The notes under the pieces are model-generated. The model saw only the letters and a program-made list of their open reading frames with translations. It made no database searches and was not told the origin of the DNA. A DNA stretch of 60,000 nucleotides from Botryllus schlosseri (lineage: Eukaryota), in assembly GCA_051294905.1 (NCBI GenBank), contig CM119371.1, positions 38,256,001 through 38,316,000 of the forward strand, in the 5' to 3' direction. The position numbers and the translations under genes were made by a program. Below are positions 1-50,300 of this stretch, piece after piece. Position 1 is the stretch's first letter. Each line of letters begins with the position of its first letter.

Positions 1-100
1 CAAGCAGAGTAATCGCTCTTGGTACTCCGGCAAACGTACCGTCGTGAATTTATACTCAAGAAGCTGCTGGTTCGTAATACAGAACTCGAAGATGGCCTTC

Positions 101-1575
101 AATACAACATCCATTGTAATAAAATATTTATTGAACTCGAATACTTTTCGGGTGCCTCTTTTCAAGAGGTATATGGTGAAAGTATACATCACAAAGATTG
201 TTTGAACGAATAACGCAACAAATCCTCAAATCGATTCGCTCAAAAACTTGCGCAAATGACCGCAAGCGTTCGCGCGCCAATTCAAGTTGACTGCAAAACC
301 TGACTCATCTGACGATTATCAAACATACGCTTCGTCGAGCGGTCAACATTTAAGTGAAAATCCTTCTTGCGCTCAAAACTATAAGGACGAAAAGTTTACT
401 GTCATTGCGCGAGGCAGATTTCTGTTTCATTTAAAAGTGTTAGAATCAACCAGTATTCAATTGACCAAGCCTATTCTAAGTGACAGACAGACAGACAGAC
501 AGACAGAAGTTTATTTTCATGTGTAAGACAGTAATGCTGTAAAATGGTGGCCAGCGATACGACCTTCAGGTCTTCAAGTCAGCTGGTCACCTCATACATT
601 AAACAGACAGTCAATATAGGTCAACATGCAATACCAATTACATATAGGCTAACCCATATATGTATATCTATAGTTAATGATTTGGCATATCACTGCTGTC
701 AATCTAGCTACATAATAACAAGTAACTAAACAGTTGGTAAAATAACAAGTAAACAATACAAACGGTACCAAACTCTCAATGGTATGAGAATGAAGAAACT
801 AAACAGTAGCCATTAGGTTATGATTGGAAGAGCTGCTTTTATAATGATATTTAAGTTCGTTAAAAGACATACTTTTCAATTCAGTTGGAGTCTCACCCCA
901 TAGTTTTGGTCCTGAAAAGACAATGGATCTTTGAGCCATTGAAGACACACGTGGAATAAAATAGTTGTTAGAAGAAGCAGATCTGGTATTATAAGTATGG
1001 ACGTCTTTTTGGAGAAGAAATAGGCCTAGCAATGCATCGGAAATATTGCCATTATGGTATCTATGCATCAACTTTGCAATTTCTAAAGAGCACATTTTGG
1101 AACTGCTAATATGTTGAGGGATCTGTTTGCTTGCTGAGCACTATCCTAGACGGCATATTGATCGGATAGCTCTATTTTGTTGAACAGATAAGGCTTGCAA
1201 GTACGTTTTGAAAGATGTGCCCCAAAAAATAACACCATAAAGGTGAGGATGAATAATGGAAAAGTATAGAGTTCTTAGAACTGATCTGGGAAGTAAACGA
1301 GATACCCGTGACAGCACACCACAAGCACGAGAAACTTTTGACACTAGCAATTCGATATGTGAACAAAAGGATTTTCTGTATTGCGTTGTTACTATAGCTG
1401 CACTGTTACATTGCGGACTTCATGGTGTGCAATTCTGATTGTACGCCATATTTTGCCTTTTTGCTTTAGATTTTCCGTCTGTTTAAATCCCTATAGTGTG
1501 CCGTTAACTCTTGAAAAAGGGCTCATGAAAAGTCTTCGAGTTCAATAAATATTTTATTACAATGGATGTTGTATT
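101..1575. mobile_element. Inverted-repeat-bounded element hosting the LINE fragment
   Basis: 49-bp inverted repeats at 101-149 and 1527-1575 with one mismatch; no clear TSD. Confidence 0.6.
482..1350 (-). mobile_element. 5'-truncated L2/Crack/CR1-clade LINE (ORF2 C-terminus, 3'UTR, (TCTG)n tail)
   Basis: Frameshifted ORFs KVSRACGVLSR...LRTLYFSIIHPHL-YGVIFWG...QNRAIRSI and HTYNTRS...SGPKLW; AATAAA followed by a microsatellite tail at 482-506. Confidence 0.85.
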
Positions 1576-1989
1576 AAAATCAATTACAAGTAGAAGTAGG
1601 TGAAGAGAAGGTGATTTAGAGCTGCTAAGTTGAAGTAATCTTAAATTGTTAACACTTGAGTAATTAGTGCAGCTAGATCAGATCTACTTGAGTAGAGCAG
1701 TATATACTTCGTGACTGACCACCATTGCTCCCACGTGTCCATGTGCAGGCTTTATAGTTCATTACATATCCAACAATGGCTGAATTCAGAGGAGAAGTGT
1801 TATCATATTTTGAGAGCCGTCAATGAGGACACTTTTCACACGGTGCAAAATATTCTATAGTGGACGAGAAAACGAGTCATTTTCCAATACAGCTAATGAC
1901 ATTGGGTCAATTCCCCCAATAACCGCTTATAGTTTAGATTAGGCAAGTTGACTAGGAGTAAAACAGGGCACTTTTAGTACTCGTATACC

Positions 1990-3810: not shown

Positions 3811-4463
3811 AAAACGGATTTTATGGTCGTTTTTTGGTATTTTAAGCTAAAAAAGAGGACAAATTGCCGAAAAGGAGAACATTTGCGCGAAGTAAGGACA
3901 TGTCTTCAAAAAAAGGTCATCTCTTTCCGAAAGAAGACGGTGGGGTTATCAGCCACGGTGCTAGTTTTTAGAGCTTTGCTTTAATAATCCAAGGATCGTA
4001 TATCCATCGGATTTATTTATTCTTGGCTGGAGCCGGATTCATACTTCCGGTGATAAGACCGTTTCCGGATTAACATTTTTCTACTACGGCCGGATTCACA
4101 ATTTGAAACCTCGTATTTTAGCAGACGTTTTTCATTGAAATATGAAAAGTTGGCATGATATTGACAGGTTGTTTTCGGACTTTGAATTGGAAATTTATCA
4201 GTCGCATTTTTTCGGACTCCATATTTCAAATTGTGTGCCTAATTAGTACTTTTCCTCGTACGACCAGAGTGGGATCGGGGCTGGATTCCATTAAAAAAAC
4301 ACGATCAGAGTCGAACTAGGCCAGGGAATTTGTCGTTCGGATAGCGGTCGTTCTTTATTCATGATTCAGATTCGATTAAAGTCCGCTCGTCTTAAATATT
4401 TTCAAGACCGACCGTTACAAATTCCAGAGTTTAGTCAGCTTCCTACGCATGACGTTAGCTTAC

Positions 4464-6879
4464 CGGCACAACTGTCGGTGTCGTAGTCCCCGCCGTCGTC
4501 GTTGTCCCCGCCGTCGTTGTTGTTGCCGTCGTGTTCCTCATTTCTGTGTGCGGAAGACAAAGAGTCGGTTCAGCGAAACCAGAAATTTGCCTCCTTCAGA
4601 CTTTTACATGCTACTGGATTTTCGGGACGCACAACTAGAACGAGAACTAGGATTACTCACTTTCAAAACAGGCCACAAATTACTAAAACACCGCTAATTC
4701 TATTCAATTACGAAACTAATATATTCGTTTATATTTTTTTATCGGAATTGCGTCGGCTTCAATTTTCGGGTTTCAAATGGGAGGGTTCCGACTAGGGCTG
4801 GGCAAAATCGAGCAACTGAGTGATTCAATTCTGAGTCACGTAATATGCTTCGAGTCGAGTCGAGTAATCGAGTATCACACGTTATGACGTCATATATGAA
4901 TGTAATACGTCAAAGTTCAAATATGTACCGTTTATGCCCCCACAACGAATATAATGCATTTTATCCATGTCTTAAATGGTATTTCGGTATTGTTTCTACC
5001 ATACCGATTTCATTCCATTTGGTGACAATGTTGTGAAATAATCATGACTTCGGAAATGTGCTACATCCAGTAACCTTCGTAGCTTCGTACCATATGTTTC
5101 GTATGCTATGATACCGCCAATCAAGGTTTCAAGGCTTCAGCAGTGAAAATTAGTATCGAAACTATAATTCTTGTTGATAAATTAACTTTCAGTGGCGAGA
5201 AGCGTATAATTTCAGTACTCGAAAAAATCGTATTTTACTACTCGACTCGAATCATTAAAATCAATACTCGATTCAGATTCGAGTACTCGAATCATAGTGC
5301 CCAGCCCTAGTTTCGACCCCGAAAACCCATCCGCTACGCCAGTGCTAGTGCGGTGATGAATTTGAGTTAGCCATCGCTGTGAGAACACCACACAGCAGAA
5401 CGCCGGTATTCACGCCAAACGACGACAGTCGAACAGTGTAGTCTATTTCATCTACGACAATTTTGCGGACTCGTAACTACAGATTTAGAACTATACTTAA
5501 TTCTGGAAATCATCCACTACAACTACAAATTAGAGCTAAAACTACTATGAGAATCAGTAATTAATTTACCACCAACCAAACTGGATTGGTAGTTCGTACA
5601 AGTATGGCCTCGTTTCCCCCCGATACTCACGTTGAATCAGTTGTAGCAGCACGATGGTTCTTATCAATTCCTGCAACCGATTGTTAGGTGGCGGAGCATA
5701 TCGAACTGGCACGTATTGACTCCCTTGTGCGACGTACGCGCTCGCTTGCTGGATCGTAGAAAACTTGTTAATTCGGCGAAATTGTGCTCACGCATATGTT
5801 GAAAGAGATTGTATATATCGTGAAAAGTCAGAAGCCACCTGAGCATTACCACCAGACTTACAGATCCAGCGACGGAGGAAGACCGTCGCTCAGCCATCAA
5901 AGCCGAGTCACCATGGACAGTCGCGTATCGCTACACTCAAAACCTTACAATAACTAAAAAAGATACAGCTTGAAAAAATATATTCGTATTGAAATAAATC
6001 CAGATATATTCGGTAATCGTCAGTAACTATAGTAAAGAATTGAAACTCTGCATTTCAAATTGCCTCCTATAGTGTCTTCGCCATTACTCCTGACGAGTGT
6101 CAGCCGAAAATCCTCGGGTTTATTTCAATGTGAGTATATTATTCGATTGTATATTGAGGTTCTGCACCTCGATAAGCCTCTCGAAGGGTACGGATGTACG
6201 GAAAAACAGCGCCATTGAAAATATGTAGATGATAAATGATTACGGTAGGGTCAGTGATTTGTTGATTAATACAATTTAGTGGTATATGAACAGGCTCTTG
6301 GAGGTACAGAACTTCAATATACAATTGAATAGTATATTCATATTGAAATGAACCCGAATATTTTCGGCTGACACTCGTCAGGGGTAATCGTCAGCAACTA
6401 GTAGAGAATTCAAAAGAACAGCGTATATCAACAATCGTAACACGTCATATTTTGTGTTACGATTGTTGATATACGATGTTCTATTCAATTTAGTGGTAAT
6501 ATGATAGCCCTGAGTCAAACACAACTTTTTTCGAAAAACTCTCAAGAAGGCAAATTACGGAGATTAGACTATAAACTTAGTTCATATACTGACATCGCTA
6601 CACCCGATTGAGTTCTGCAAACGATTAGTGAAATGATGGTGATGCTCATACATGCGCAATCAACAGCGAGTGTTCGCCTGTATGTGGAACAAATTATCAA
6701 AAATGGTTGGGCTGACTTACTTCTCCCTGGTGGGTTGTCGGCCCCTGTCCAGCTTGTTCACCAGTAACTGCAATATCAACAAGTTCAAAAAGACCAATAG
6801 AGACAAATAGTCAGCAAAGATTCCCACCTCCGACGTAAGCGACTGCCACGAGCAGGATGAAACTAGGAACGAATCGCAT
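4464..6879 (-). CDS. Gene A (partial): secreted Thr-rich stalk / C-type-lectin-family paralog. Exons 6828-6879, 6721-6767, 5631-5748, 4464-4543; lectin exons 5-6 not found in window
   Basis: GT-AG exons of 52/47/118/80 nt with phases 1/0/1/0, matching paralogs B and C. Translation: MRFVPSFILLVAVAYVG-VTGEQAGQGPTTHQGE-QASAYVAQGSQYVPVRYAPPPNNRLQELIRTIVLLQLIQ-QMRNTTATTTTAGTTTTAGTTTPTVVP. Confidence 0.85.
4793..5309. mobile_element. hAT MITE family F3 (TAGGGCTGGGCA ends) in gene A intron 3
   Basis: TIRs with TSD gttccgac/gtttcgac; near-identical to 34317-34833 in the opposite orientation. Confidence 0.9.
6086..6119 (+). ncRNA. Minimal hammerhead copy with altered stem III
   Basis: ACUC-CUGACGA-GUGUCAGCC-GAAA-AUCC-UC-GGGU; core intact, stem III palindrome broken. 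Confidence 0.6.
6352..6385 (-). ncRNA. Minimal type I hammerhead ribozyme (intact core)
   Basis: Minus strand reads ACCC-CUGACGA-GUGUCAGCC-GAAA-AUAU-UC-GGGU: full CUGANGA/GAAA/UH core, stem I ACCC/GGGU, palindromic stem III. Confidence 0.8.
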
Positions 6880-8256
6880 AATAGTCCTATTGACTAATAC
6901 CACCTATCTGCTGTTGGAAGAGAATATTTCCTCGGAAATTGTAGAGCATCCTGACTGTAAGTTCACTAATAAATCCACCATAACGGTTCTACCGAGAAAG
7001 CGGCATCACAAGAGAACGAATTACACGAAAACAAATTGTTCTATCACATGGCTTCTCAAACTTGGGTACGCGAGCTATGTCATTTATATGACACTAGGAC
7101 AATTTTCTACAGCAGTGAATTTAGGAAGTATATGGGAATTGGGTTTAAGATCATAAAATGCAGTGTTTATTAAGGTTTAATACCATCATAATTTCACATT
7201 TACTTGTGCATTTTCCGTAGTGAATTTCTGCTTCTCTGTCCGTGTTATGAGAGTTATTACCATAGTCCACTGTATATTTCACATTATTTATATTCAAATC
7301 AGTATCATCTGCTTATTAGCCTATGAAGGCTGCTTGATTAGCGCTATTGTGGTTTATGATATTTATGTACAATGATGAGCTGGGTATAGTTTATGGAATA
7401 AGTCGTATGGCAAAGTCGCATCCAGGAATGTCAGAAATTGTGTGGACAGTCGTTTTCTCTTCGCCTCCACAGACTTACTAGCAAAGCATTGTCAAGCTCA
7501 TCCATCGCAGTGGAATGATGTTTGAAAATGTAAATACATAGTCTGTGGGGATTCGTCTTTCAATTCGGCATACTTTATACAGCATCATTTCTAAGGGGTA
7601 TAGGCCTACGCCATACATGCAAATAACTCGTAACGAAAAAAAAGTTTGAGAAATCCCGTTCTGTCAAGAATATCAGATCGCGATCGCGGAGCAGCATTTC
7701 GCGGGTAATCCAAACTCCAAGTATGTATACACTCGTGACAAAACAATCAGATTTTACTGGATGAATACAATTCCGCGATTGAGATTACCAGACCACTATC
7801 TCACACATCGATTACGCCTACCGCAACACGCCACTTCAATTCCCCTGCTTTTACTTTCCATGGTATCTCTTGTTACTTTTCATTCCGTGTCCATGCACGT
7901 TGTATACATGTTCGAGGCAAAAGCGGCAGTCTTATTGAAAGACTAGTCCAAGTTGGTTCGGAGGCCACATATCCCTTGACCTTTGCACGATCTTGTGATG
8001 AGATGAAGCGATAGAATCATGACTGACTTAAACTGGGCTGAGCGGAGCAAGCTGGCGGTGTCGATTTTGTTGAATACTGCGTGGTTATTTTGACTTACGA
8101 ATATGGGGCTGGTCACAATGATTGGCATACTCGTATCTGATTCGAGCATCTATTTTACATATTCGAGTCGGTATAGTGAGAAATTAACCTTTTGATTACT
8201 GAAATGATGTGCTTGTCGTTATGAGTTCATTTATCCCCGTAAATTATGGTTTAGAG

Positions 8257-9158
8257 CAGGGGTGTCAAGCATAAGGCCGGCGGTCCCCATTTACATTTCA
8301 TCCGGCCCGCGAAGCAAGTCTGAGAATAGATTGAAATATACTTTTATGTTTCAGAAAATTGTCTAACAAATTTTCCATTAAATAATTCCTCATGGCGGAA
8401 AATGTGGAGTAGATTCTTAGGCCAAATTATAACTATCCGACACCGGGGTTATGGTTGCACCCAAGTCACGAAGAGGAACGAATCGCTGACATTGACACCC
8501 ACTCACTACCAGGAAGGCACAAATAATCGCTTTCAATTCAGAGTTATATTTAAAAAAAATGGAGAAGTAGTTATTCACAGAAGCAGAAACGTGAATGCAA
8601 AACGGTTATATGCAGGTTACATGTAGAATATAATAATAGTTACACAACAATAGAATCCAAACATCTGTAGTCGCACTTCTTTGACACTTACGTCTCAACA
8701 GGTTTACGGTTATCAGAGCAACCCGGATTGCGATTTACTGAGAATTAACCAAATCAAACGTCGCATTAACAGTTAAATTTTTTGTACTCCTCACAATGCA
8801 CATACAGGGCTAACGTCTGATTACGACTGAAATAAAGAGAGGACGGAGATACCAACTTATATCGTCGTTACATCCACTGTTTTGACGGTTTATAACTGTA
8901 GGCTACTCAGACAGCCAATAATCGTATTTTGTCAATTCCATTGCTTGCTAATGAAGGTGTTGCTGGAATAGAGCCCCCATGATCCACAATATTATGTAAA
9001 TTACTATTATGTTAATAGGCTTGATAATAATTTATTCATGTGAAAGCAAGGGCATGGATATTAAGGTAACATTTTGCAATCACTTGACTGGCCCGACCCG
9101 CATGCGATCAGAAGGTTTGAATCCGGCCCGCGACGCAAGTTGAGTTTGACAGCCCTCT
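8257..9158. mobile_element. Non-autonomous hAT element
   Basis: CAGGGGTGTCAA...TTTGACAGCCCT ends with CGGCCCGCG subterminal motifs; TSD degenerate. Confidence 0.7.
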
Positions 9159-16018: not shown

Positions 16019-16757
16019 CTGTAATCCCATGGCTGGAAAATGGTTGCATTAAACAGATTTTCACCGGGTTATGAATTGTGCCTTCACATCCTTCCGATCG
16101 ATTAATTTGTGTCAAATACACCAATCCTTAGGGAGATATATCTTCAAGGTACTGGAGGTTTTGTTTTCGTTTATCACCCCAAGATATCACGACAAGAAAA
16201 AAAAGGCCACGATACCCGTATTCTGTGACAACAGAGGTATGTTGTGTACCATCGATCATCTAAAAATAGTGCATTGAGTTTAAGGTATCTGTTCGCCTCG
16301 ATTATTAGAATTTCAACGCCGGTGACGTGATATTCGGCAATACGATTGATGATATACCATGTTCTTTTCAAGTCTCTTCCAATTACTGAAGATTACCCCT
16401 GACGAGTGTAAGCCGTTTACATCAATATTAATATATTATCCAATTGTGTACTGAAGTTAAATCGTAGCGATTCTCATTACATGCCAAAGCTACTTCAAGT
16501 GGAAGGGGAGACTGACATGCTCCAGTATAGGTGACAATGGTAATCGACAAGGTGATCAGTGAGTGAGCAAATCATTGATGCTCAAAACTACAGTGACTGT
16601 GTCAAACAATGGATACAGAGAATATAATGCCATGCAGGTGCAATAAATCGAAGATAATTTGACATCCCCCGCCATATCTATTTCACGGCGCCTTGTGACG
16701 ATGCTGTTAGCTGATCACGACTACATAGAAGTATCATTTGTACTCACGATGCGTATG

Positions 16758-19262: not shown

Positions 19263-20491
19263 GTCTAGGCCTATCATACTTACTATTTTTACTCATTTTG
19301 AAATCGCTGATCTACTTGCAGTCGAGTAGAAACGTACGATATTACTTTTAAGGCTCCTTCGAGATCAAACTCGAATGACGTAGCGAGGCTTGCCGGTAGT
19401 CAACGCGCACCACAACCAAACCACACTTTATATATCCTTTAAATATATTCGTTGACCAAGCCAAGGCATATTAATCTCTTGCAGTAGTGGGATGAGGCAG
19501 TGACACGGCGAATTAAAAGTTACACAAAAACAGACTCAAATGCTAGCCTAGTTGTGTCCTATCTAACAGTGCAAATCTGACCATTTTTCCACAAACGACA
19601 TTTATAGTACGCATTACCCCAGTCGAAAGGTAAATAACTACTTGATATGCCAATTAAAAAACATCAAACACATACTAAGAGCATGGCTTGGTGAATGCCC
19701 GAATGGCTTTATACTTCTAAATAACGATGGTTATATGCTATCGTTACAATTACTTCTACTTGACGTACGACGGCGACCGCTTCAACCGAATCTGCTAATA
19801 ATTTATTAGAAGGATATCAATATCCCGAGTCCAGCAGTCAGCATATTCTAGACTCCCTGAGTAACCTGTTTTTACGGCTAATGTCCGATACCAATAGTTC
19901 TTTCTATGTACACTAGCGACTCGATATTATAGACAACCCATTAATTTTATCTCTATTCAGATTCGCATCTAACTCGATTTGGATTCGTATTCGATTCACT
20001 GCCGCTGCGTGTTCACTACGAATACGACCAACCAGTTAACTTTCGTTGTCAAATTGGACCAATTGGTGCGAAATGCCGGTAATCCAGTTCTAATCCTACC
20101 TGCGAAATGTTTCTATCATCGAATTTTAATTCTTGTCTATTCTCTGGTTTTCCTGAAAATGCTACAGCGGAACTGTGTAGTGCGAAACGTGCCAGCCATG
20201 TTGCATACAGACAGTTGTCATTCTCGTACTTACGAGGATTAACTCTTATTTGATATGATATGAACAGAAATTGATTTCGTTGTATTTCTTTCTAAGTCGA
20301 GATATGATTGAATTTTCAGGCCTTTATCGAATTCGCTAATTCCAATTCCTAACTAATTTGGACAATCTGAAGATTTTCTACTTTTCTAACTTTGACTCTG
20401 TCAGCCGAAAATATTCGGGCTCATTTCAATATGAATATACTATTTAATTGTAAATTAAAGTTCTCTACCTCCAAGAAGCTCTTGACCTGAC

Positions 20492-23500: not shown

Positions 23501-26500
23501 TTGAGAAGCGATCTGATAGATATGCTGATTCTACTTTTGATTGAATTTTCGGACATACAATCCTGGTGGCATTATAACCATGTTACTGTTTAACACGCTT
23601 TACAATTGAATAGTATATTCATATTTAAATGAACACGAAATGAGCAACTAGGTGAGAATCTCACCCTTGACTCATCCGGTAAACCTTGATGCTTGGCAAT
23701 CAAAGGCCATAAATTCTGCCATTGGCTAACATCTGTTGGATAATCCAGCTTGTGCGAAAAACTATTGAGACTACAGATTTCGATACGCTGGGAGGGGCCG
23801 TTCACACTTTCAAATGTGTGCCGTGGAGTCGAATTTCATCAAAATGCACCAGCCCAGACTGTGTCTACAAAAAGAGTATGTGTAGGCCTACCATCTAAAA
23901 TAGTACATTGAAATCTCTCGTATTTGAATTTTCATGCTGGTGACGTCGTATTTTGTGATACGATTGTTGATATGCAATGTTCTTTTCCAATTCTCTACTA
24001 GTTCAGTTTGTTTCATTAGCAATTTTTATCAGTTCAATACACCACAAAAATTGCGATACAATGAAAAGATAGGAAGGTGTCGAAACGACAAGGAGTAGTC
24101 TTTAGAATCAGACACCCACCTTGGCCTAGACCAGGGGTTCTCATAGGGTGGGCCATGGCCCACTGGTGGGCCACAGAGCATTTTTAGGTGGGCCACAGAG
24201 CTATTTAGAAAAATCAAAATTAATGTAAGTTCAGTTATATTTCTTATGTTTTTGCTAAATATACATTCGTATTATCTAATTATACGTAGGCTATATACAT
24301 AAAGCTTTTCATCCGACTCTGATTAGACGTAGTGGCACGTATGAAGTCAGCTTGTACAAATCGAAAACGTAAGGGAGAAACGGTGGCTTTTTCTACTGGC
24401 TATGACAACCTACAGCTAACAGGACCTAAAATAATTTCAATCGTATAATAGGTCTAACTGGAAGATAATGCTGAAGTAACCAAGTATTCAAGCAGGGTCA
24501 TATGTCGTATGCCGTTGAATGGGATATGTAATGAACTTGCAATGAAGTGGAATTGATGTACAGATTTACTGTACTTCGGCAGGCCGTATTATTGCAAGCT
24601 AAAATTAGCCATAATTGCAAATTATTAGCAACTTCTGGCCGGGGTATACTGCACCACCGCAACGAATCTTAATGGATTGAGGATTTAACGGAGCGCATTA
24701 ATCTTGGAAGTCGGTTTAAAATGTCCGGCCTGGAAATCATTGTACATAATGAAAGAGTCACAGGAATTGATTGTATCATTGGATTGAATATTCTGACATC
24801 GCAACTTTGGTTGTTTTGGTACAAGACGTACAAAGTAGCCTACATCATGCATATGGAAAAATCTTTCTCCACTTCTCTGTAGTACTCCATTCACCAATTA
24901 ATTGTTCGATGCTGGCCCAGAATGATTTTAATATTCCCCACAATAGTATCACTCAAGTCCTAATCGCACAGTGCGGGGATCTCATCATTGTCTTTCGCGA
25001 CGCGAATGGAGCAGCGGACGAAAATAATCTACTTAGGAGTTTTAGCATATGATCTACCAGGGCCGTAACTGGAGGATATTTATTCAACTAGAATTTTTTT
25101 TCGCGCTTCGCGCGATTTCGTATCCCGGGAGATCGGGATTTAAATATCATCACTTAGAGAAAATGCATGCGCATATTTTAGAGAAATAGGCATATCGGCG
25201 CTGTCCATGACCATGCATTAAACAGGATTATGACTGTAAGATATCAGGTGGGCCACAGCACATTTTTAAACCGGAAAATGGGTCACGGCCAAGAAAGGGC
25301 TGAGAACCCCTGGCCTAGACGATGTAAAGAGAAGGCATGTACGCTGAATGAAAAGTAAAAGAATATAGAAAAGAAGAACCAAACTACAAAAAGTTGCTGA
25401 CAATTACCTCTGACGAGTGTCAGCCGAAAATATTCAGGTTCAGTTCAATATGAACATACTGTTTGATCGTATATTGAAGTTCTGTACCTCCAAGAAGCTA
25501 TTCTAATACGCTTTAGCAAATATCCAACACTGTTGTTGTGTAAAACATGCCTTCGTCACATTTTAGCGATAACGACAGCAGCACAATGTAATGGTGTCTT
25601 AAAAATTTTTCCGATTCCGCAGCTCATAATTTGATAAATTGTACCTATTATAATTAGGACGTGAGGTTGAAGGGAAGTGTTCCAAAGTGCAGTGACCTGT
25701 TCGCTGTATGTAAACTGATACTTATTGAAATACCTCTAACGTCGAAATATATTTTACCAAAGGCAGCACTGAAATTAATAAAATTGATGGAGTTTTAGGT
25801 TTACAATCACAGTCGTAATTCGAATTGAGTCATTTCCGTTTTGACCGGTAATAAATTAAAAAAATACACTATAATAAGATCATGGTATCATGGTGAAATA
25901 AATTTCAAAAACGCTCATTCGCTGCAGTAATTAGATTTTCAAGTCGCAGTTTATCAATAGTTTGAGGCTTTTTTGGGGCCGCACAAAATGTTGACGGGCA
26001 ATAGTTTGTCAACTTTCATATTACAGACACCTATGATGTGAACCGTGATGTAACAATAGCAACAAAGACGGATTGAACTGTACTATAGTACAGAATACAG
26101 TTATTCAGAAGTTACACAACTAAAAACAACAAGACTAATATGAGAATTGCAAGTTATAACGAATTACTTCCGTCTGCATAAATTTGATTGTTCAACATGA
26201 TATAGATGGTAACATCAGTTTCTTCAGTAACTTCGGTGTTACCAGGTCGGTGTTGCGTTCGTAAAATCTATGTTTGTTGCAAGCTATTGTTACATTGCGA
26301 ATTTTACGGTCTGCGATTGTAATAACGATCATAGTTTTGTTGTAAATAAACTCTTACGAAGATAACACACGTCACCCACCGATTATTCGCCGTGTCGTTA
26401 CAGACACGGGCATTAAGCGGTAACGCAGTACTTCGATTTTTTGAGTGTGTTTTGCCAATCTGCGTTACATCATGTAGCCTATCTCTGTGCTATTTCAACC

Positions 26501-27358
26501 TTTCTTTTTAAACGTGGGCTCGTATAGTGTGTATAATGTATTTCATGAGCTGGTTTGCATCCGTTTTACGAGTGAAATTGTCATGATAATTTATGGCCGA
26601 AATAGCCCCATCATCAAGCTAAAGTGATATACGTAAAATGCCGGTGGTTGGATTCATCCTACTCGTTGGAAGTGATCCAAATTACTCGTGCATAATTTTT
26701 TAAGCAACTCAACAATGCGATGAAGTTGACAGCAACATTTTAAAGCATATTTTTTTTATCAAATTTATGATTTTCAAACTCTATTAGCTTCACCTCTACA
26801 GGTTGAAACCGAGCCGAATTCGGTGTGCAGCGTTTCATTACCCAAACGAATGCTTTTATAGAGCAGTCAGTAAAATTTGATAAAAAAACGTGTATTTCAG
26901 CAACTGTAAGGTAGGCCACAATTTTGTGTAAACACTAAAAATATGTATCATTCTGAAAACGGTTGAATATCACTGATCTATACTAGCACTCGAATATTGG
27001 GACAAGGGCACTTACCGGAACAACAGTTGTCGTTACCGGTCCCGCCGTTGTTGTCGTTGTTCTTGTTAGCAACCTGCTGATCACTGTATGAGAAGATAAC
27101 CAGTTGGTAATGGTCGTCGAGTCATTTGCCTGGTTAATATATTACACTCACATTTGACAACTTCTACCGTCAGGAGGAGTTGAACCAATCTCTGCGTCTG
27201 ATAATTTGGAGGATACACATATCCGGCGGGAGCGGCTTGTCTCCCGACTACGACTCCCGGGTTGTTGTACTGAATGATAAGAAAGTAGTTATTGCCGGAA
27301 TATCGGAATATGAAGGAATATAGCAGCAAGATAGAGAAGTCCAAATCCACACACACCC

Positions 27359-27410
<52 letters not shown>

Positions 27411-28406
27411 AAGAGGTGGAGAGAGAGAGAGAATCGTTATTTATAAACCGTGCGGTACAACATACATAACAAAAATGCAATTGTGTCAAATATGATACAC
27501 AGATGAGTTTTGCTGCAGTTTCTTCGGACAGGTGTGCGGACCTAGGAGTTTTGGGGTGTGGCATTTGAGGTTTTATACGGGGTATTGATTTGCTGTTTAG
27601 AAATTTGCGGAATATTATTTCCGAATTGCGTTCTTTTCTTGCTGCATAGCGGCAAAATAAAAATTTCGCGGTCATGTCAGGCCGTCCCTGAAAACGAAAT
27701 GTACCGAATTCGACAGCTCTGCAGGAGCTGACAGCGAAATGCTGTCATGTATGTTTCAAACATGATGAACATAAAAATGCATGCGTGATCGATTAAATAG
27801 CGAAGAAAGAAACGAAACAAGCAGACACCTTGTAAATCCTAAAGGTGAACCGTTGGTTTATACAGCGGAACCTTCCAAGTATCTCATACCTTGATAATTT
27901 TAAGAACTGATATATTCGACTTTTTATTGCAACTTTTGTTAAAATTAAGTGCAACTTTCTCACGATTTTAGCGTGACAAAAACTTGCCCTAGTCATAACC
28001 TAACGATATGAATTGCAACCCTATGTCCGAATTAAGCGGAGAATTGTCCGAATGAGCTGTAGTGCAATTGAGCGGAAGATAATGAGTTCAAACGGAGAGG
28101 TATTTCAAATACTGACACCGATATACGTGATAGAATGTTGCACAAGACTTGTACAGTGTTCTTGCGAACACAGTCGCTAGATGTTGTTGACTATCCGCAG
28201 GAATGTAGGACAGATATTCAAAATAAGCCGCGGCGCACTTACCGATCCCTGGTGAGTGCCTGGCTCTTCTCCAGCTTCTTCGCCAATGACTGCAATTAAA
28301 ACCAGCTTAAGAAAAGCAACGCTAACAAACAGTCCCAAAGGCTAAGTTGCTTACCTCCGACATAAGCCACTGCAACAAGGAGGATGAAGCTTGGAACGAA
28401 TCGCAT
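20590..28406 (-). CDS. Gene B: secreted protein with divergent C-type lectin domain, 227 aa. Exons 28355-28406, 28243-28289, 27152-27269, 27016-27083, 23173-23315, 20590-20845
   Basis: Six canonical GT-AG exons (52+47+118+68+143+256 = 684 nt) splice in frame. Signal peptide MRFVPSFILLVAVAYVG, Thr-rich stalk, CTLD motifs WKTYKGCQY, helix Cys, VWLGL, KWTDG, FYVCEYCP*. Confidence 0.9.
21567..22112. mobile_element. hAT MITE rich in GACTCGAGTC repeats, nested in an older CAGTGG element starting about 21506 (gene B intron 5)
   Basis: CAGGGTTGTAA/TTACAACCCAG ends, TSD atttatcg/atctatca. Confidence 0.78.
24132..25312. mobile_element. Non-autonomous hAT element in gene B intron 4
   Basis: CAGGGGTTCTCA/TGAGAACCCCTG TIRs, perfect TSD gcctagac, GGTGGGCCA subterminal repeats. 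Confidence 0.9.
25406..25439 (+). ncRNA. Minimal type I hammerhead ribozyme (intact core, compensatory stem I)
   Basis: ACCU-CUGACGA-GUGUCAGCC-GAAA-AUAU-UC-AGGU; a stem I C-G pair is replaced by U-A relative to the 6352 copy. Confidence 0.8.
27361..27432. repeat. (GA)n microsatellite in gene B intron 2
   Basis: Long GA run; the paralogous site in gene C (about 51568-51585) is a short GA-rich stretch. Confidence 0.95.
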
Positions 28407-29084
28407 GCTGGTCTATCTTGACTAGCACGACCGATCTACTTAAGGAAGAAAAGAAACTGTGATTATTATTATTATTAACAATGACAATAGTTAATTAACA
28501 ATCACCAACCAATACCAACAATTAAAAGTAGTAATATAGACTGAGAATAACAAAATGTGGGGATTATCGATGTGCACCACGGCCAAAGTTTAGAATCACA
28601 ATTCAGTTGGCAAGAAATGTGTTAAATTATCGCATTGCTGGCTCAGACGATCTCAAAGTACGCTGGTAACAGTTCTGGCCGCAGCGGGAGGTGGTGTGCT
28701 GTGAATTCAGCGATTTAAAAACGTCTCATGAATTTGATGTGATCGGTACATCCACACAATGTACCAGATACGAATTCACTGAGCCTTATTACTTGGATTC
28801 AGATTTTTGAAATATGAAGATGCACTATTGCATTTTTGACGGGGTTCAATAGCATGGCTCAAGCCTCATTAGATCGATTCCTTTTAATCAGTGCTGACGG
28901 TCATTCGCGTGATTGGAATAGCTGATGATGCAAGGTACCTCATATCGCCGAGAAAAGACGCCAGCGTTGGTTAATCACCTCGATTCCCATTTTTGAAATA
29001 TCGAGATGCACTGCTGCATTTTGGAGGGTACAATAGCTTAGCTCAAGCCTTATCAGATCGCCCTTTTTAACCAGCAGTTTCGTC

Positions 29085-33479: not shown

Positions 33480-33690
33480 GACACTCTTGGAGATATATAA
33501 CTTTAATTTACAGTTGAATGGTATATTCATATTGAAATAAACCGGGATACTTTTGGCTGATACTCGTCAGTGGTAATCTTCAGTCAATAAGAACGACTGA
33601 AATTAACATCGCACATTAACAACCGTAACGCCAAATACGACGTCGAAGGCCCGAAAATTCGTGTAGGTTAATCGAGACGAACAGATGGCT
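33480..33690 (-). mobile_element. Degenerate copy of the hammerhead-bearing repeat
   Basis: Same flanks; core mutated (GAAA>AAAA, UC>CC) at 33541-33574. Other partial copies at about 16280-16460, 20398-20478, and 23915-24003 plus 25391-25500. Confidence 0.7.
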
Positions 33691-34316
33691 CACTGTAATA
33701 TTTTCAGATTATACAAGAACGTTGTCAGAGATTTGGTTTAACGAATTTTGATTAAAAGTGAATTCGACACACGTGAATGAGACAACGAACGGCCTCTCTC
33801 GACAACGGCCGTTTCCCGCTTTAAATACGAACCTGATTCTTTACAATAACTCGAAAGAGAAACCTGGCCGTCAGAAGCTTCCCGTCCATTATCATGCGGT
33901 CAGCAAACTAAAACGTTTTAACCAATCTAAATCCGTTATTTTACAGGGAAATCCTCATCTCGGATTTCAATTTCGTGTTCCATCATTGTAGCCTACTCCG
34001 TGCGAAGAATACAGTAAGATATGTTGCGCGTTACTGCGCAAGCTACGGTATTGAGCGATACGAATTTACGGACGATAACCGTCGCTCAGCAATATTGTAC
34101 TTCATGAAACAATACGTTTTCCGTATCTCCTCTCGAATGCATACGGTTTAGGTACTTATAAGTTTCATAATTTAGTGGCAACTCCTAGTATTAATATGAA
34201 GGTAGAAAAGCTACATCAAGATGCCTTATTGAATGTTTCAGTCCACTGTGCAAATTATGCATTTGTTATGGGATTTAAAATCAACGCCCGGGATCGTCGC
34301 ACAGATTGCTCGCAAC

Positions 34317-34833
34317 TAGGGCTGGGCACAATGATTCGAGTACTCGAATCTGAATCGAGTATTAATTTTAATGATTCGAGTCGAGTAGTAAAATACGATT
34401 TTTTCGAGTACTGAAATTATAAGCTTCTCGCCACTGAAAGTTAATTTATCAACGAGAATTATAGTTTCGATACTATTTTTCACTGGTGAAGCCTTGAAAC
34501 GTTGATTGGCGGTATCGTAGCATACGAAACATATGGTATGAAGCTACGAAGGTTACTGGACGTAGCACATTTCCGAAGTCATGATTATTCCACAAAATTG
34601 TAACCAAGTGGAATGAAATCGGTATGGTCGAAAAAATACCAAATTATCATTTATGAGATGGATAAAAGGCATTATATTCCTTGTGGGGGCATACACGGTA
34701 CATATTTGACCTTTGACGTATTACATTCTTTTATGACGTCATAATAAGTGATACTCGATTACTCGACTCGACTCGAAGCATATTACGTGATTCAGAATCG
34801 AATCACTCAGGTACTCGATTTTGCCCAGCCCAA
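34317..34833. mobile_element. hAT MITE F3
   Basis: TIRs present, perfect TSD ctcgcaac. Confidence 0.9.
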
Positions 34834-36029
34834 CTCGCAACAAGGGAGAATTGACTTAAACGCATAGCTTCGAATTTCCCGGACGTCCCTTCGACACATA
34901 TTTCTCTGATTCACAGAGCGCCGTTATTCGCGGCAATCGCAGGAGGGCCGTTCGACCTGAAGCGGGATATCTCCGTCATGTTGTGACGTAATCTCAATTG
35001 AAGAGCGACATATATGCCTTTTACAAACTGTTGAAATCTGTAAGCTTTGAAACCAAGTTTCCATTTAAACCAGATTCCACGCAATGGTTAACGCGGTTTG
35101 ACGTAATTGGGTTTAAGGTTGCGCTCAATCACACCCGTCAGCATTAACGCGGTCTACTGGCGTCCCTGATATAAGCTCTGAAAGATTAACTGTCACAAAT
35201 TACTGTGAGTAAAATCTTCACTCAGCTTGCTATATACAGAGGTTATCATAGTCTGCCTCATTTTCCCTCGACTACATGTAGAAGTGGCGATTTTCCACAA
35301 TAAGCATCGTGTCGGAGTTACCCGGATCTGGCTACATTAGAAATTGTCAGATGTATCCACGCGCTTAACGCGAACAGACTATAATAACGCTACAAATTGG
35401 TGAAAGTATGAAAACGATAGTAAGTTACCGTGGTGCAGCTGTATTACGCCCAGTTTGCACGGCGATCCTCATCATAAATGCGATTCTATGATATCTCCAA
35501 ACGACTGTCTACTTTACAGATTGCCAGGTGTGAAAATAAGTAGTTTTGCATGAAGAATTGTTAAGTAGATGCGGAAGTAGTCAAATCTCAAATGCAATAC
35601 ATTGCCCGAGCCGATAGAGAACAGAGAATGTGCATTACTAGGAGACTTAACAGGTTGCTTCATTTCGTATGGACTGTATAGCACAGGCGGAACTGCACTG
35701 TAAAAAATAAAGGTGGGTTTTTGGCAAAAATGGAGGAAGAAACTATAATCCTTCCTTTTACGAGAGGTAGATTATGCCATACACCTGTCAAGAAGGTATA
35801 ATACATTTTCCTACCTCCAGAAATACATATTCCACCTCCCAAAACCCTCCTATAAAGTGATATATACGATACATTACTTTATAGGAGGGTTTTGGGAGGT
35901 GGAAGATATATTTAAAAAACTGCATCGCGCATAATAGCTCCGATAGTTATCATGCATATTCCAGTCAAAATACATACAATTTCTACTGAATCAATACCAT
36001 AGTCAGATCAAGATTACCGGACCATCGAC

Positions 36030-36495
36030 CTGACGGTTCTATACCAATACCGAGAAAACCATTACCGAGAATGGACATTACCGAGAATGCCATTACCGAG
36101 AATGGATATTACCGAGAACGGACATTACCGAGAATGGTCATTACCGAGAATGGTCATTACCGAGAATGGACACCACCGAGAATGGACATTACCGAGAATG
36201 GTCAATGTCAAGAATATAGATTACTGGGACTGACGTTGTCGAGAAATTTATACCTGAGCATCGATACCGAATGTGGCAACGCCGTGATGCACTCACGGCA
36301 CGACCTGTGCATATGCATAACATGCCTGTATTGCATATATTGCATTCTCGGTAATGTCCATTATCGGTGGTGTCCATTCTAGGTAATGTCCATTCTCGGT
36401 GGTGTCCATTCTCGGTAATGTCCATTCTCGGTGGTGTCCATTCTCGGTAATGGCATTCTCGGTAATGGTTTTCTCGGTATTGTCCGGACACCCGA
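36030..36495. mobile_element. Foldback-like palindromic element with arms of tandem 16-bp units (ACCGAGAATGGACATT)
   Basis: About 10 direct units at 36047-36205 and about 9 inverted units at 36343-36482 around a unique core. Confidence 0.85.
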
Positions 36496-36503
36496 CCTGA
36501 CAT

Positions 36504-37019
36504 TAAGGCTGCTGGGCACAATGATTCGAGTACTCGAATCTGAATCGAGTATTAATTTTAATGATTCGAGTCGAGTAGTAAAATACGATTTTTTCGAGTA
36601 CTGAAATTATACGCTCTTCGCAACTGACAGTTAATTTATCAACGAGAATTCTAGTTTTGACACTATTTTCCACCGAGAAAGCCTTGAAACCTTGATTGGC
36701 CGTGTCGCAGCATACCAGACATAGTACAAAGCTACGAACGATACTGGAAAAACATATTTCCGAAGTCATGATCATCGCAAAACATTGTCAAGAAGTGTAA
36801 TGAAATCGGTATGGTCGAAAAATACCAAAGTATCTTTAATGTGACGGATAACAGCCATTATGTTCTTTGCGATGGCATAAAAGGTACATATTTGAACTTC
36901 GACATAGTACAGTCTTTTGTGACGTCATAATGAGTGATACTCGATTACTCGACTCGACTCGAAGCATATTACGTGATTCAGAATCGAATCACTCAGGTAC
37001 TCGATTTTGCCCAGCCCTA
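36504..37019. mobile_element. hAT MITE F3
   Basis: TIRs present, perfect TSD cctgacat. Confidence 0.9.
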
Positions 37020-37905
37020 CCTGACATATCGATCCAATTTTTTTTATCACCTGCATGTCCTTTTATATCATCATTCTTTTACTCTTCGCATGCAGTGCAT
37101 ATATACTGCTCCGACTCCGGACTGTGGCCACCTCTGCACGTGGCCCATGCACAGATATCGATCTATAGTCTTTGAAGAGTTGCAGTCGCTGCAGTTGGTG
37201 GTGTTGGGCGATAGTTGCTCGGTTTATGATTATGGAATGGAATTGTCCCGTTGAGTCGTGCAAGATAAAAGCATTCTCTAGCCGACTATATCTATTAGAT
37301 CATTTACGAAGCATTAGGTTACCGTTACGCGTTACTGATTTTTCTGAGATTCGTAGTAAACAACCAATGCATCACTGTGACATCACAAGCAGCGTCTGGT
37401 TACGTCAGTACGGTAAGTAGTGACATCACATGGAATAAATATCAATTTATACGCAATTAGATGGGAAAGAAAGGGACTAGATGTAATGATAAATGTTTCT
37501 GTAAAAAAAACGACCTAAATCAAACATTATAACGCAGTGGCCTGTAAATATTATTGGTGGCATGTCAGCGGATGAATACCACTTATTTTGAAATCGTTAG
37601 AGTGGCGTATCGTCGTCTGGCCATTATAGAGATTTGAGCAAAGGGTGGAGCGAAGCTTGTGCTTGAAGAAAGTGGGCACGATCGTTGAAGATTCCTAGGA
37701 ATGCTGATTGGGATACGCATCGTAAAAGGTACGTTTAGTAAACCATTTCGAAATGCCGAAATTGATTTCAGTTTAAACATATTGCTGTTGTTGTTCACAG
37801 TAAGCCATTCTGATTCTACTGTGCCCAATATCACTATTCCTTCATCGGTATCCTTCATCGGTATCCTTCATCACTATTCCTTCATCTTCACTTAATTTTG
37901 TACAG

Positions 37906-47300: not shown

Positions 47301-50300
47301 CACGTGATTGCATGGTTGGACAACCGTAGTCTGCTACCAATTTATCGCAGATTCGTAAACAAATATAGTAATGTTATAACTTGCGAACAGAGGTAAAATG
47401 TATTTGAACTGGTTGCTATTGTCGCATTGATATATACTATTATCTGCTCAAGGCACTGCAGACATCCTGAAATTGTCCTTAAATGTGTAATATCGTCAAT
47501 GCTCGGATTGTTCGCACCAATTACTATTTCCTGCTGTGGACCAACTGTGCAGTTTTGTTTTGCGAATCTACTAGTAGGTTATTTATCTATAGTGCAAGAA
47601 ACTTCAGGTAACATCAGTAATAGCAGATATAGCAGCCTTGAAATCGAACTTGCCACGGGATTGTCGGTACTCGGGCAGACAAAAAGAAGTATCTCCGAAT
47701 ATTTCGGCTCAATTGCAAGTACAAACAGCGATTTCTGAGACCTGTCAATAATGCTTCCAGTTGCGAGATAGCGCAGTGGTATAACCCACAGCTGCAACAT
47801 CAATGGGTCGCGGGTTCGAGTCCGACCGAGGTCGACTCCGGAATGCCTACCTTAGTCTTGGAGGTTTATCTAGTCTCCTCCTCGCCAACTCATACGTGTA
47901 AACGGTGTCTTATAAAAGCCTCGAAGTGGACCGTGCTACAAGTCGGCAGACTCGGAATAAAAATAAAGAAAATTGACCTGGTGTAAATGACCATAATAGT
48001 CGACAAGCACCTTGAATACCGCAAACAACAACAAAAATAATGCTTCAGGCGGGAGTTTAGAATTAAGATACGAATAGCACTCTTGTGATAAGTTTAATCA
48101 AGTCGATTTTATCGAGACGTGTGGGATTCAAGTTTCATGTAAACCTGTTTAGTTAAGTTTGTCATATTTTCAGTCGGTTCGGTACCAAAATCATTCATTG
48201 ATAGCAACCAGTAATGCTAACCGGTTCGCTGATCTCAAAACAATTCGTTAGACGGTTGAATAGCAAAAGCGCTAACCGCTTTAATCCGACCTCAAAAGTA
48301 TATCAATTAATCGTCCTTATTATAGGCACAATTATTCAAATATTGAGATGCTTTGATACACCATGCAGTAACTTATGTTACTAAATACGTGAATAAGGAC
48401 AAGTTTCGCAATATAACACTGTTTTCCAATTGCGAAAGAGTTTTCAAGGGTAACATAGTTAGGCCTATGATTCTGTCAGCATCGTGTGTCCGAAAGCTCG
48501 AGCAAATGCAGTAACAGAAAATCAATTACCTGATCGCTGCACACCGATTCAAATTTTTAGCTTGTTGTCAGAATCGGCGCATCGGACTGTCATCTCTAAT
48601 TTTGATAAATTCCTTCAAAACATTCAAAAGTAGGCGCGATAGTATAGGTGCGTCATCAGGAATCAGTACTCGCACTCGTTCGTTATAAACGACAGTCACT
48701 TAAAAATGTTGATCTACATTTCAGCCCGATTGAAAAACCTATACAAAGGATGTAAGTACGAAGCCAGTAAATCACCCGCGACTGACATAGTTGCAGAGAA
48801 CACGTTACCGGATATCGGCCCCCTAGTGGGACTCATGGAGGTGAGCGCCAGGATAGCGGGGGGTCGGCTGTGAGTGACGAGATTTTTGTAACATCACCGG
48901 CCAAATAGGTGTATCTACGATTTTAATCCAACCCCCTATATGAGACGCCTCGATAAAATCGACTTGTTTAGACTTTTCAATAAAGTGCTAGTCGTATCTT
49001 AATTTTCTACTCCCATTTGAAGCAGTTTTGACAGGTCTCAGAAATCGCTGTTTGTCTTGAGAATTGAGTTGAAATATAGGGACTTATATGGACTCTAATA
49101 CTGTCTCGGTAATCACTATATTTGTACTTGCATTTGAACGGGAATTTACTTCTTCTGTACTTAATTACCAACAATGTCTAGTGTCGCCAAATCCAGTTTT
49201 CAATAATGGTGTAGCAGCTAAGACATAGTCGTGACCAATCACGGGGCAAGTTCGATTTCATGTCTGCTATACCGGCTATTACTTATGCTACCTAAAGGTT
49301 CTTGTACTATAGATAAGTAATCTACTGATAGATTCGCATAACGTAATTTCACAGTTGGCCAACCTGATACTGCTGGAAGTAGGAAATGGAGCAAAAATCC
49401 GAGCATTGCCGATATTCAACATTTAAGGACTCTATTTCGGGTTGACTTCATTGCCCCGAGCAGACATTGATATATATTTCAGGAATCAGTGCTGGAGTAG
49501 CTTTCGGGAAAGACCAGTTCTAATACATTTTGCGCTTTGTTCGCATGTTATAATATTACCATATTTGTTTGCGAAGCTACGATAAATTGGTAGTGGACTT
49601 CGGTTGCCCAACCATACAGTCACGTGTTTGCATGTATCTGAGGATTAGTAACCTGAAGTACTGCTCTTCAACAGGCTGTATCGTAGGGGTACCTGTTAGG
49701 ATGTAACAGAACTGTCCAACGGTGTACCAATTCTATGAGAGGAGGTGCAAGGGTGTCCCTGTTACCGCAACCAGTATACACAATCCATATTGCATCTAAT
49801 GATCTCATTTCTTACTGATTACAGTGCTAGTTAGAGCGGAATATCAGGACTGGGCGAGAGTATTGATGCAAACCTGGGGTTCTCAAGCTATTTTTTTTTA
49901 TCGTGGACCCGTTCAAGTATTGTGGGCGGTTGCGCACGCCCCCAAAAAATTGAGAATTTAATGACATGCCTGAAATCAGCTAACTAATAACTTGGCAAGG
50001 TAGTCACTAAACTAGTGAGGGTTAAACATTATAATATACTTGTTAGTCATCATATTCTCGCACATGTTAGTCATGCACATTAATCGTGCACTTTTACAGT
50101 TTTTGTGTAAACATTAACAATATGTAACCTTCCGAAAATGATTGAAGAACACGCTTGATACACCCCCTCGAATACTGCGGGGATGCAGCCCCTTACCGGA
50201 ATCACAGTAGTTGCCATTGTCGATTCCGTTGTTGTCGTGGTTGTTCTCACGAGAATGTCACTGATTACTGTATAAAAGATATCCAGTTAGTAATGGTGGA

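What the first reader, a model, noticed from the sequence alone, without database searches (positions are those of the whole stretch)
6352..6385. Intact minimal hammerhead ribozyme in sense orientation inside intron 2 of gene A
Seen: the minus strand, which is the strand of gene A, reads ACCC CUGACGA GUGUCAGCC GAAA AUAU UC GGGU. This is a complete hammerhead core with a 4-bp stem I, a 1-bp stem II and a palindromic AAUAUU stem III; predicted cleavage falls between 6356 and 6355. Established: such minimal type I hammerheads occur in Penelope-like elements and metazoan retrozymes, and cleave mainly as dimers through the palindromic stem III. Inference: gene A pre-mRNA could be cut in intron 2 by dimerisation with another transcript. 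The inverted copy at 6086-6175 could pair with this one and mask it.
Basis: partly seen in the sequence, partly recalled or inferred. Interest (0 to 1): 0.75.

Follow-up and report, generated by a model that had tools for sequence, protein, structure and literature searches.

The report
Penelope-element hammerhead, passenger in an intron
The hammerhead ribozyme motif is really there, but it belongs to a short leftover end of a very common Penelope-type jumping gene that is missing from this intron in another sample of the species, so it is likely a harmless passenger and not a switch for the gene; its one unusual trait is a predicted RNA knot in place of one stem.

Summary
The motif is confirmed letter for letter on the minus strand (6385-6352), in sense orientation in intron 2 of a spliced, expressed gene. 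It lies in a ~200-bp remnant of the terminal repeat (pLTR) of a Penelope-like retroelement. The copy has a head-to-head inverted 5' piece, a ~13-19-bp target duplication and the first 18 codons of the element's ORF. A sister copy in the window still carries the C-terminal endonuclease end. About 20,000 contigs per DNA run hold the motif, and this copy is their majority form. Another sample has the empty site but keeps the inverted copy, so the two are separate insertions. Catalytic positions vary like the flanks. Folding predicts inactive hairpins, then full masking by the inverted copy. Gene regulation is therefore unlikely. The scan has already noted this design several times elsewhere in this genome. 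Cleavage is not shown.

The parts
6352..6385 (-). Type I hammerhead: 4-bp stem I, intact core, 1-bp stem II with 7-nt loop, palindromic stem III; predicted cut 6356|6355
   Evidence: majority form of the family
6389..6395 (-). 5' strand GCUGACG, predicted to pair (7 of 7, one G-U) with loop II 6373-6367 as a pseudoknot; 3-nt linker to stem I
   Evidence: weak RF03152 match; predicted only
6289..6443 (-). Direct, 5'-truncated piece of the Penelope-like terminal repeat (pLTR)
6444..6485 (+). Inverted head-to-head 5' piece of the same insertion (hairpin 6407-6490); outer edge uncertain by about 5 nt
6486..6504 (-). Target-site duplication, upstream copy (13 nt exact; 18 of 19 with one gap)
   Evidence: empty allele in run X13 record 10
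6272..6289 (-). Target-site duplication, downstream copy
6288..6341 (-). First 18 codons of the element's ORF; ATG 14 nt after the predicted cut
   Evidence: best of 119,888 positions with a profile of 71 full-length relatives' N-termini
6083..6179 (+). Separate, probably older family copy, antisense to gene A; core intact, stem III no longer palindromic, 5' knot strand missing
   Evidence: present in the sample that lacks the 6289-6485 insertion
5979..6045 (-). Third, decayed family copy in the same intron, sense, with the hammerhead core deleted
5749..6720 (-). Intron 2 of gene A (972 nt)
   Evidence: RNA joint
6828..6879 (-). Gene A first coding exon (signal-peptide-like start; read by eye)
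6721..6767 (-). Gene A exon 2
5631..5748 (-). Gene A exon 3
23655..24003 (+). Longer family copy: stop-broken C-terminal end of the endonuclease, then the 3' UTR shared with the 6381 copy; head-to-head inverted piece at 23599-23650
25392..25509 (+). Second intact copy of the motif in the window (stem I pair U-A instead of C-G; knot 7 of 7)
16287..16462 (+). Decayed family copy (GAAA and stem III lost)
20399..20483 (+). Family copy truncated inside loop II
33484..33686 (-). Decayed family copy (G12 changed, stem III broken)

Best explanation
The motif sits in a ~200-bp 5'-truncated terminal-repeat fragment of an endonuclease-bearing Penelope-like retroelement that is present in intron 2 of gene A in this sample and absent in another, and it is likely a silent passenger there. 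Shown: the motif, the spliced intron, the inverted 5' piece, the target duplication, the empty allele, the element's ORF start 14 nt after the predicted cut, and the endonuclease end on a sister copy. Inferred for the parent element: tandem element RNA would fold stem I and a 7-bp pseudoknot between the 5' strand and loop II, close stem III with a second copy, and cut just before the start codon, possibly only with the element's own protein. Inferred for this copy: the nascent intron first folds into two inactive hairpins. Within about 300 more bases it pairs with the antisense copy and is spliced out, so pre-mRNA cleavage would be negligible.
For: Family of 8 copies in 60 kb; 19,616 and 20,514 contigs laid in two DNA runs, with only 9 and 15 places reaching 3% variation. 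Empty allele: X13 record 10 runs 7061->6486 and then 6269->6114 with 4 letters between. Target duplication. The family's ORF end matches P0002 at 57 of 80 residues and P0048 at 28 of 56; P0048 has 841 aa with RVT_1 at 365-546. The ORF start ranks first of 119,888 positions. The anatomy matches PMC3846280 and PMC8557442 (passages). Variant shares in X1, core versus other positions: non-CpG 1.4% vs 1.6%, CpG 3.5% vs 3.2%; G12 5.3% (from 40 of 74 rows). Monomer MFE is two inactive hairpins at -10.5 kcal/mol; the intron fold pairs the core with the inverted copy at probability about 1. No family copy lies in 26000-28600 or 50200-53400, which hold the two paralogs. Penelope hammerheads cleave weakly as dimers (PMC4209133) or only with the element's protein (PMC11167929).
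Against: The copy is intact and close to the family majority, and family RNA is present on both strands, so a dimer partner exists in principle. ViennaRNA cannot model the pseudoknot, so the active fold is not in the computed ensemble. A pseudoknot could make this ribozyme faster than the tested ones (PMC3088659 passages). The RNA runs come from other samples and are not known to carry the insertion; intron-unique bins have depth 0-0.2, so the pre-mRNA was not seen. Only 6 of 13 core positions entered the variant comparison; C3, U4, G5, A14, A15.1 and U16.1 are not among the rows shown. Equal decay among dead copies says nothing about selection on the parent element. No full-length element of this family was recovered. 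The empty allele rests on one contig of one sample that is about 8-10% diverged in this intron.
Confidence: 0.85

Rival explanations
1. The intronic ribozyme cuts gene A pre-mRNA by pairing with another family transcript, lowering or altering expression of the filled allele; the inverted copy tunes this.
For: Sense orientation, intact core and a 7-bp knot partner. Family RNA is present in all three RNA runs laid. The motif is transcribed about 170-270 nt before the masking copy, which leaves a short time window.
Against: The insertion is absent in sample X13 and from both paralogs. Stem I pairing probability is at most 0.04 in all 8 nascent prefixes, computed without pseudoknots. The palindrome alone gives about -0.2 kcal/mol, against about -108 for pairing with an antisense family RNA and -123 with the inverted copy. 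Published rates for Penelope hammerheads are low.
Confidence: 0.05
2. The repeat is a non-autonomous, self-amplifying retrozyme or SINE-like unit of about 200 bp that makes circular RNA, rather than a truncated end of an autonomous element.
For: Very high abundance and short copies; a few 'goes back' joints in DNA contigs show short tandem arrangements. A preprint derives retrozymes from pLTRs (10.64898/2026.07.22.740005; part 1 and passages).
Against: Copies end at variable 5' positions, and one runs straight into the endonuclease-coding end. All 8 window copies are solo, not tandem arrays. Inverted head-to-head joints dominate the rows shown. No 'goes back' joint is shown for the RNA runs in the rows displayed.
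Confidence: 0.06
3. The sequence does not self-cleave even in the parent element. The two alternative hairpins, not the hammerhead fold, are the working structure around the start codon, and the 5' 'knot' strand is just a short duplication of the core.
For: Both hairpins are more stable than any computed piece of the active fold (-10.5 vs +0.1 for stem I plus the 1-bp stem II). The 5' strand repeats the core's CUGACG. Hammerhead mutants of the Anolis element still insert in vitro. Two older copies pair only 4 and 5 of 7 in the knot.
Against: A second Penelope family in the window keeps the same layout with different letters: a U3-A8 core, a 1-bp stem II with 7-nt loop and 5 of 7 pairs in the same register, and its loop is not complementary to its core. 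All catalytic nucleotides are in the family majority. This rival concerns the parent element and does not exclude the best explanation.
Confidence: 0.2

Closest known systems
Minimal and small-helix-III type I hammerheads in pLTRs of metazoan Penelope-like elements (Cervera and De la Pena 2014, PMC4209133)
   Same: Type I topology, short helix I, G10.1-C11.1, palindromic helix III, location in the pLTR, mostly solo truncated copies; the paper also describes pairs 100-700 bp apart on opposite strands and a U3-A8 core variant.
   Different: All 44 rows of the supplementary alignment that I read in full have a helix II of 3-8 bp, and the consensus has an extra base after A9. Here helix II is 1 bp, there is no extra base, and a 5' strand can pair with loop II. 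'Pseudoknot' has 0 hits in the supplement file searched (file 1 could not be searched).
RAGATH-1 / pseudoknot (PK) hammerhead (Rfam RF03152; Zhan et al. 2024, PMC11300833, PDB 8YDC)
   Same: G10.1-C11.1 closing a 7-nt loop that pairs with an upstream strand in place of helix II; AU just before helix I; model positions 24-77 align.
   Different: The score is far below gathering (14.8 vs 56.3 bits). There is no room for helix IV plus the AUA4 linker, because the knot strand is 3 nt from stem I. Helix III is a short palindrome rather than a long hairpin. The host is an animal retroelement.
pLTR insertions of endonuclease-bearing Penelope elements (Adineta vaga Pen2/Pen2a, PMC3846280; general scheme in PMC8557442)
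   Same: About 200-bp repeat that includes the first codons of the ORF, head-to-head inverted 5' piece, target duplication, empty allelic site.
   Different: The duplication here is 13-19 bp, against 8-10 bp in the passages read. The clade within the Penelope-like elements was not determined.
Hammerhead of the Anolis Poseidon element PAc (PMC11167929)
   Same: Hammerhead at the pLTR-ORF junction; no RNA-seq ends at the cut site.
   Different: The PAc cut lies 26 nt after the start codon; here the predicted cut lies 14 nt before it. Protein-assisted cleavage is shown there and untested here.

Membership tests
Endonuclease-bearing Penelope-like element | Repeat lies directly behind a C-terminal GIY-YIG endonuclease of an RT-EN ORF | tested here: met
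   Sister copy 23655-24003: 57/80 identity to P0002 and 28/56 to the C-terminus of the 841-aa RT protein P0048. Pfam GIY-YIG is weak and below cut-off in 3 of 10 hits tested, and absent on the fragment itself.
Endonuclease-bearing Penelope-like element | pLTR includes the first codons of the ORF | tested here: met
   6341-6288 ranks first of 119,888 positions; 4 of the top 6 are copies of this family and 1 more is the second family.
Endonuclease-bearing Penelope-like element | 5' truncation with inverted head-to-head piece and target duplication | tested here: met
Endonuclease-bearing Penelope-like element | Telomerase-like RT in a full-length copy of this family; clade assignment | not testable with these tools
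   No genome held; no RT piece of the clade in the window; no relative of this family in the collection scans.
Type I hammerhead ribozyme | CUGANGA, GAAA, UH core with stems I-III in type I order | tested here: met
Type I hammerhead ribozyme | Site-specific self-cleavage | not testable with these tools
   Needs a bench assay; RNA-seq tables show no pile-up of ends but cannot detect such a cut well.
Metazoan Penelope min-HHR (Cervera 2014) | Palindromic short helix III | tested here: met
   AAUAUU
Metazoan Penelope min-HHR (Cervera 2014) | Multi-pair helix II with an extra base between A9 and 10.1 | tested here: not met
   1 bp and no extra base here; 3-8 bp in 44 of 44 rows read
RAGATH-1 / PK hammerhead | Loop II pairs with an upstream strand, supported by covariation | tested here: inconclusive
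   7 of 7 pairs in 2 intact copies (chance 0.1% in fixed register, 0.6% over 8 offsets). Second family 5 of 7 with changed letters, chance 8%. Only two families were available.
RAGATH-1 / PK hammerhead | Helix IV with A-rich triplex linker, and a long helix III | tested here: not met
   3-nt linker between knot strand and stem I; Rfam model positions 1-23 unmatched, 14.8 bits
Non-LTR retrozyme | Tandem repeats with a hammerhead in each unit | tested here: not met
   All 8 window copies are solo; definition
Conserved host-regulatory intronic ribozyme | Fixed and conserved at the orthologous site, with excess core conservation | tested here: not met
   Empty allele in X13; absent in paralogs; no core excess in the rows shown

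The most novel reading that the evidence does not exclude
This Penelope clade uses a hybrid hammerhead: a pseudoknot replaces helix II as in RAGATH-1, without helix IV, and a palindrome closes helix III only in a dimer. Two built-in decoy hairpins keep it off until the 5' strand frees the core. It cuts fast, 14 nt before the element's start codon. With tens of thousands of near-identical genomic copies, sense intronic copies such as this one become targets that element RNA can cut in trans, which makes insertion polymorphisms allele-specific expression modifiers.
Probability: 0.12. Interest if true: 0.6.

Novelty: new variant of a known kind. Interest (0 to 1): 0.2.

Why it matters
At this locus it matters little. 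It is one of a very large number of Penelope-type ends and shows the known insertion signature cleanly, with the empty allele in hand. The part worth a bench test is family-wide. If the predicted pseudoknot is real, Penelope hammerheads include a compact design that search rules requiring a multi-pair helix II would miss. It might cleave faster than the weak variants tested so far, which bears on the open question of what these ribozymes do in retrotransposition. The filled/empty allele pair also gives a simple natural test of whether a sense intronic copy costs a host gene any mRNA.

Tried and rejected
Rfam: no hit at gathering score in 60 kb; with E<=10 on 4000-9000 only miRNA-like hairpin matches to the 6407-6490 palindrome and similar noise; the miRNA reading is rejected because the hairpin is the inverted junction of the insertion. 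No whole genome is held, so there is no true copy count. The summed contig depths give roughly 1-1.5 x 10^5 by division, but the tool says these are no copy number, so only the contig counts are used as evidence. The look-up of sequencing runs: no RNA holder listed. No pile-up of read ends at the cut site in 3 RNA runs; these are fragmented or tag libraries from other samples and the unique intron parts are uncovered, so this is weak. Searches for relatives with DNA: exact 20-mer, 0 hits in metagenomes. Degenerate layout pattern: 0 of 23 viral matches and 0 of 121 metagenome matches (19 of 64 parts scanned) have both a stem I of 3 or more pairs and a palindromic stem III; six stem-I-forming look-alikes lie in long bacterial-looking ORFs. 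Protein-led scans: none in viral contigs; 2 loci among 26 candidates in prokaryote genome contigs, of which only L146 was read; it carries a conventional long-helix-II hammerhead. Pfam on 134 of 146 listed window frames of 72 aa or more gave no RT or endonuclease; the broken endonuclease ends were found by alignment instead. A word-based protein search with the fragment found nothing. The Atlas gave only a lead (GIY-YIG in 17% of one cluster, score 0.86). My first chance test missed the real motif through a pattern error and was redone; one energy value failed on a 2-nt loop and was redone. Exon 3 and 4 ends were each off by one base and are corrected from the loose ends. The idea that 6083-6388 is one MITE-like element with terminal inverted repeats is rejected, because only one arm is missing in X13. 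The stem I change in copy 25410 was not taken as covariation: both changes are common transitions (2-5% each) and linkage cannot be read from the tables. Lunse et al. 2017 (PMC5785218), the most relevant paper on short-stem-III Penelope hammerheads, is not held; I saw only its title and a review's summary, so it may already show this layout.

Full report
Observation. It is a type I hammerhead layout with a 4-bp stem I, an intact core, G10.1-C11.1 closing a 7-nt loop, and the palindrome AAUAUU as stem III. The canonical cut would fall between 6356 and 6355. A descriptor for this layout finds 3 hits in the window (6090+, 6381-, 25410+), all copies of one repeat. In 1000 dinucleotide shuffles it found 5 hits, none with a palindromic stem III. 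Rfam has nothing at gathering score. On an 81-base stretch the RAGATH-1 hammerhead model matches weakly (14.8 bits, gathering 56.3, E 1.6).

Host gene. Bulk RNA reads (run X23, about 6% of the run) show joints 6767->6828 (218 reads) and 5748->6721 (182 reads), both GT..AG on the minus strand. The motif is thus in sense orientation in a 972-nt second intron. The protein starts with a signal-peptide-like stretch and has a Thr-rich fourth exon (read by eye; no family assigned). Two paralogs lie at about 27000-28450 and 51350-53220; the regions 26000-28600 and 50200-53400 contain no copy of the repeat.

The repeat. Eight copies lie in the 60 kb: 5979-6045, 6083-6179, 6289-6485, 16287-16462, 20399-20483, 23599-24003, 25392-25509 and 33484-33686. 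Only 2 of 8 keep core, stem I and palindrome. Laying two DNA runs on 6335-6415 placed 19,616 and 20,514 contigs, and only 9 and 15 places reach 3% variation. This copy is therefore the family's majority form, not a special variant.

What the repeat is. The copy at 23599-24003 continues upstream into a reading frame broken by stops. A profile of this fragment and a related one at 260-523 finds 996 proteins at E<=0.001. The fragment itself is 57 of 80 identical to P0002 and 28 of 56 to the C-terminus of P0048, an 841-residue protein with a reverse transcriptase domain. Pfam's GIY-YIG model scores weakly, below cut-off, on 3 of the 10 hits tested. Downstream of the hammerhead, an ATG at 6341 opens 18 codons that rank first of 119,888 positions against a profile of the N-termini of 71 full-length relatives. 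The repeat is thus the terminal repeat of an RT-endonuclease Penelope-like element, and the predicted cut lies 14 nt before the element's own start codon. No full-length member of this family was recovered, and the clade was not determined.

The insertion. The direct piece (6443-6289) is preceded by an inverted head-to-head piece (about 6485-6444). The unit is flanked by a direct repeat of 13 exact bases, or 18 of 19 with one gap. In sample X13 one contig runs from 7061 to 6486 and then from 6269 to 6114, with 4 letters between where an exact empty site would have 2. The insertion is absent there, while the inverted copy at 6083-6179 is present. The two copies are separate insertions and their pairing is an accident of this haplotype. 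This rests on one contig from a sample about 8-10% diverged in the intron. The same anatomy is described for rotifer Penelope elements (PMC3846280, passages) and in general (PMC8557442, passages). Opposite-strand hammerhead pairs 100-700 bp apart are described in PMC4209133 (main text parts 1-3 of 4 read; supplement file 2 part 2 read and the rest searched).

Conservation test. From the 40 of 74 rows shown, I took the commonest change at 33 places and set aside 6350, where the family is split (17-23%). In X1, core positions vary by 1.4% (non-CpG, n=3) and 3.5% (CpG, n=3); other positions vary by 1.6% (n=21) and 3.2% (n=5). G12, the general base, is among the most changed (5.3% in X1, 6.8% in X13). 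This is neutral, CpG-biased decay of dead copies. It says nothing about selection on the active parent.

Folding. The 34-nt motif folds best into two hairpins that bury both halves of the core (-10.5 kcal/mol). In 8 nascent prefixes of the intron, stem I never exceeds probability 0.04. Once the inverted copy is made, the core pairs with it at about 1.0. The palindrome alone gives about -0.2 kcal/mol, against about -108 for an antisense family RNA, and family reads come from both strands in the single-cell runs. These programs cannot form pseudoknots, so the active fold is under-counted. Published Penelope hammerheads cleave weakly as dimers, and the Anolis one cleaves only with the element's protein and is dispensable for insertion in vitro (PMC11167929, passages and second part of the main text).

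The unusual trait. Seven bases upstream of stem I (6395-6389) pair with all seven bases of loop II, also in copy 25410. The chance is 0.1% in fixed register and 0.6% over 8 offsets. A second Penelope family at 98-1578 has the same layout with a U3-A8 core and different loop letters, and pairs 5 of 7 in the same register; alone this has an 8% chance. Against it: two older copies pair only 4 and 5 of 7, and in this family the strand is also a near-copy of the core. The build resembles the pseudoknot hammerhead of PMC11300833 (parts 1-2 of 6 read) but has no room for helix IV and its A-rich linker. Pseudoknots between stems I and II, and one case of a 1-bp stem II, are already in PMC3088659 (passages). 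I did not find a pseudoknot described for Penelope hammerheads in searches (mostly listings) or in the passages read (also PMC6765202, PMC10085705 and the 2026 retrozyme preprint). The key paper, Lunse et al. 2017, is not held, and the preprint's supplements are closed. I had seen the pairing in the sequence, but the RAGATH-1 name and the structure paper came from the scan's notes, which report this design many times in the same genome; those notes are not independent support.

Verdict. A real hammerhead motif, carried by a polymorphic Penelope-type end, most likely inert in gene A (0.85). The element and its insertion pattern are known biology. The 1-bp stem II with a predicted knot makes it a variant of the described Penelope hammerheads. 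Cleavage is untested. Interest 0.2.

Noticed in passing
window 98-1578: Second Penelope-like family: inverted hammerhead piece (171-98, minus), endonuclease fragment (about 186-493, plus), then 3' UTR and hammerhead at 1511 with a U3-A8 core variant and a 1-bp stem II.
   Followed up: partly
window 480-1430, minus: 3' end of a LINE-like element with a (TGTC)n tail, inserted into the second Penelope family; the LINE label is recalled from the look of the peptide, and Pfam gave no hit.
   Followed up: no
window 58960-59130, minus: Third endonuclease fragment of the same Penelope clade.
   Followed up: partly
window 4464-6879, 27000-28450, 51350-53220, minus: Three paralogous genes for a probably secreted protein with a Thr-rich exon; gene A is expressed in bulk RNA but its exons have almost no reads in the single-cell run X21 over 5400-7200; no Pfam hit on the exon-3 frame.
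   Followed up: partly
window 5400-7061: Sample X13, labelled the same organism, differs by about 8-10% in this region (55 letters and 15 gaps in 698; 58 and 3 in 576): very high polymorphism or a cryptic lineage.
   Followed up: no
window 36075-36468: Two arrays of a 16-bp unit facing each other as an inverted repeat, inside a copy of another dispersed repeat.
   Followed up: no
window 4785-5316 and 34310-34841: 532-bp repeat, 93% alike in opposite orientation, with further copies at 36511-37020 and elsewhere; ends look like short inverted repeats (MITE-like).
   Followed up: no
window 6366-6395: A diverged family copy with several changes in the core and an inserted base makes up about a fifth of one strand's reads in run X22, probably one highly expressed locus.
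   Followed up: no
L146:1501-3620: A contig filed under a bacterial MAG carries a Penelope-like ORF with microsatellite flanks and a conventional long-helix-II hammerhead at 3573; likely animal DNA in the bin.
   Followed up: partly
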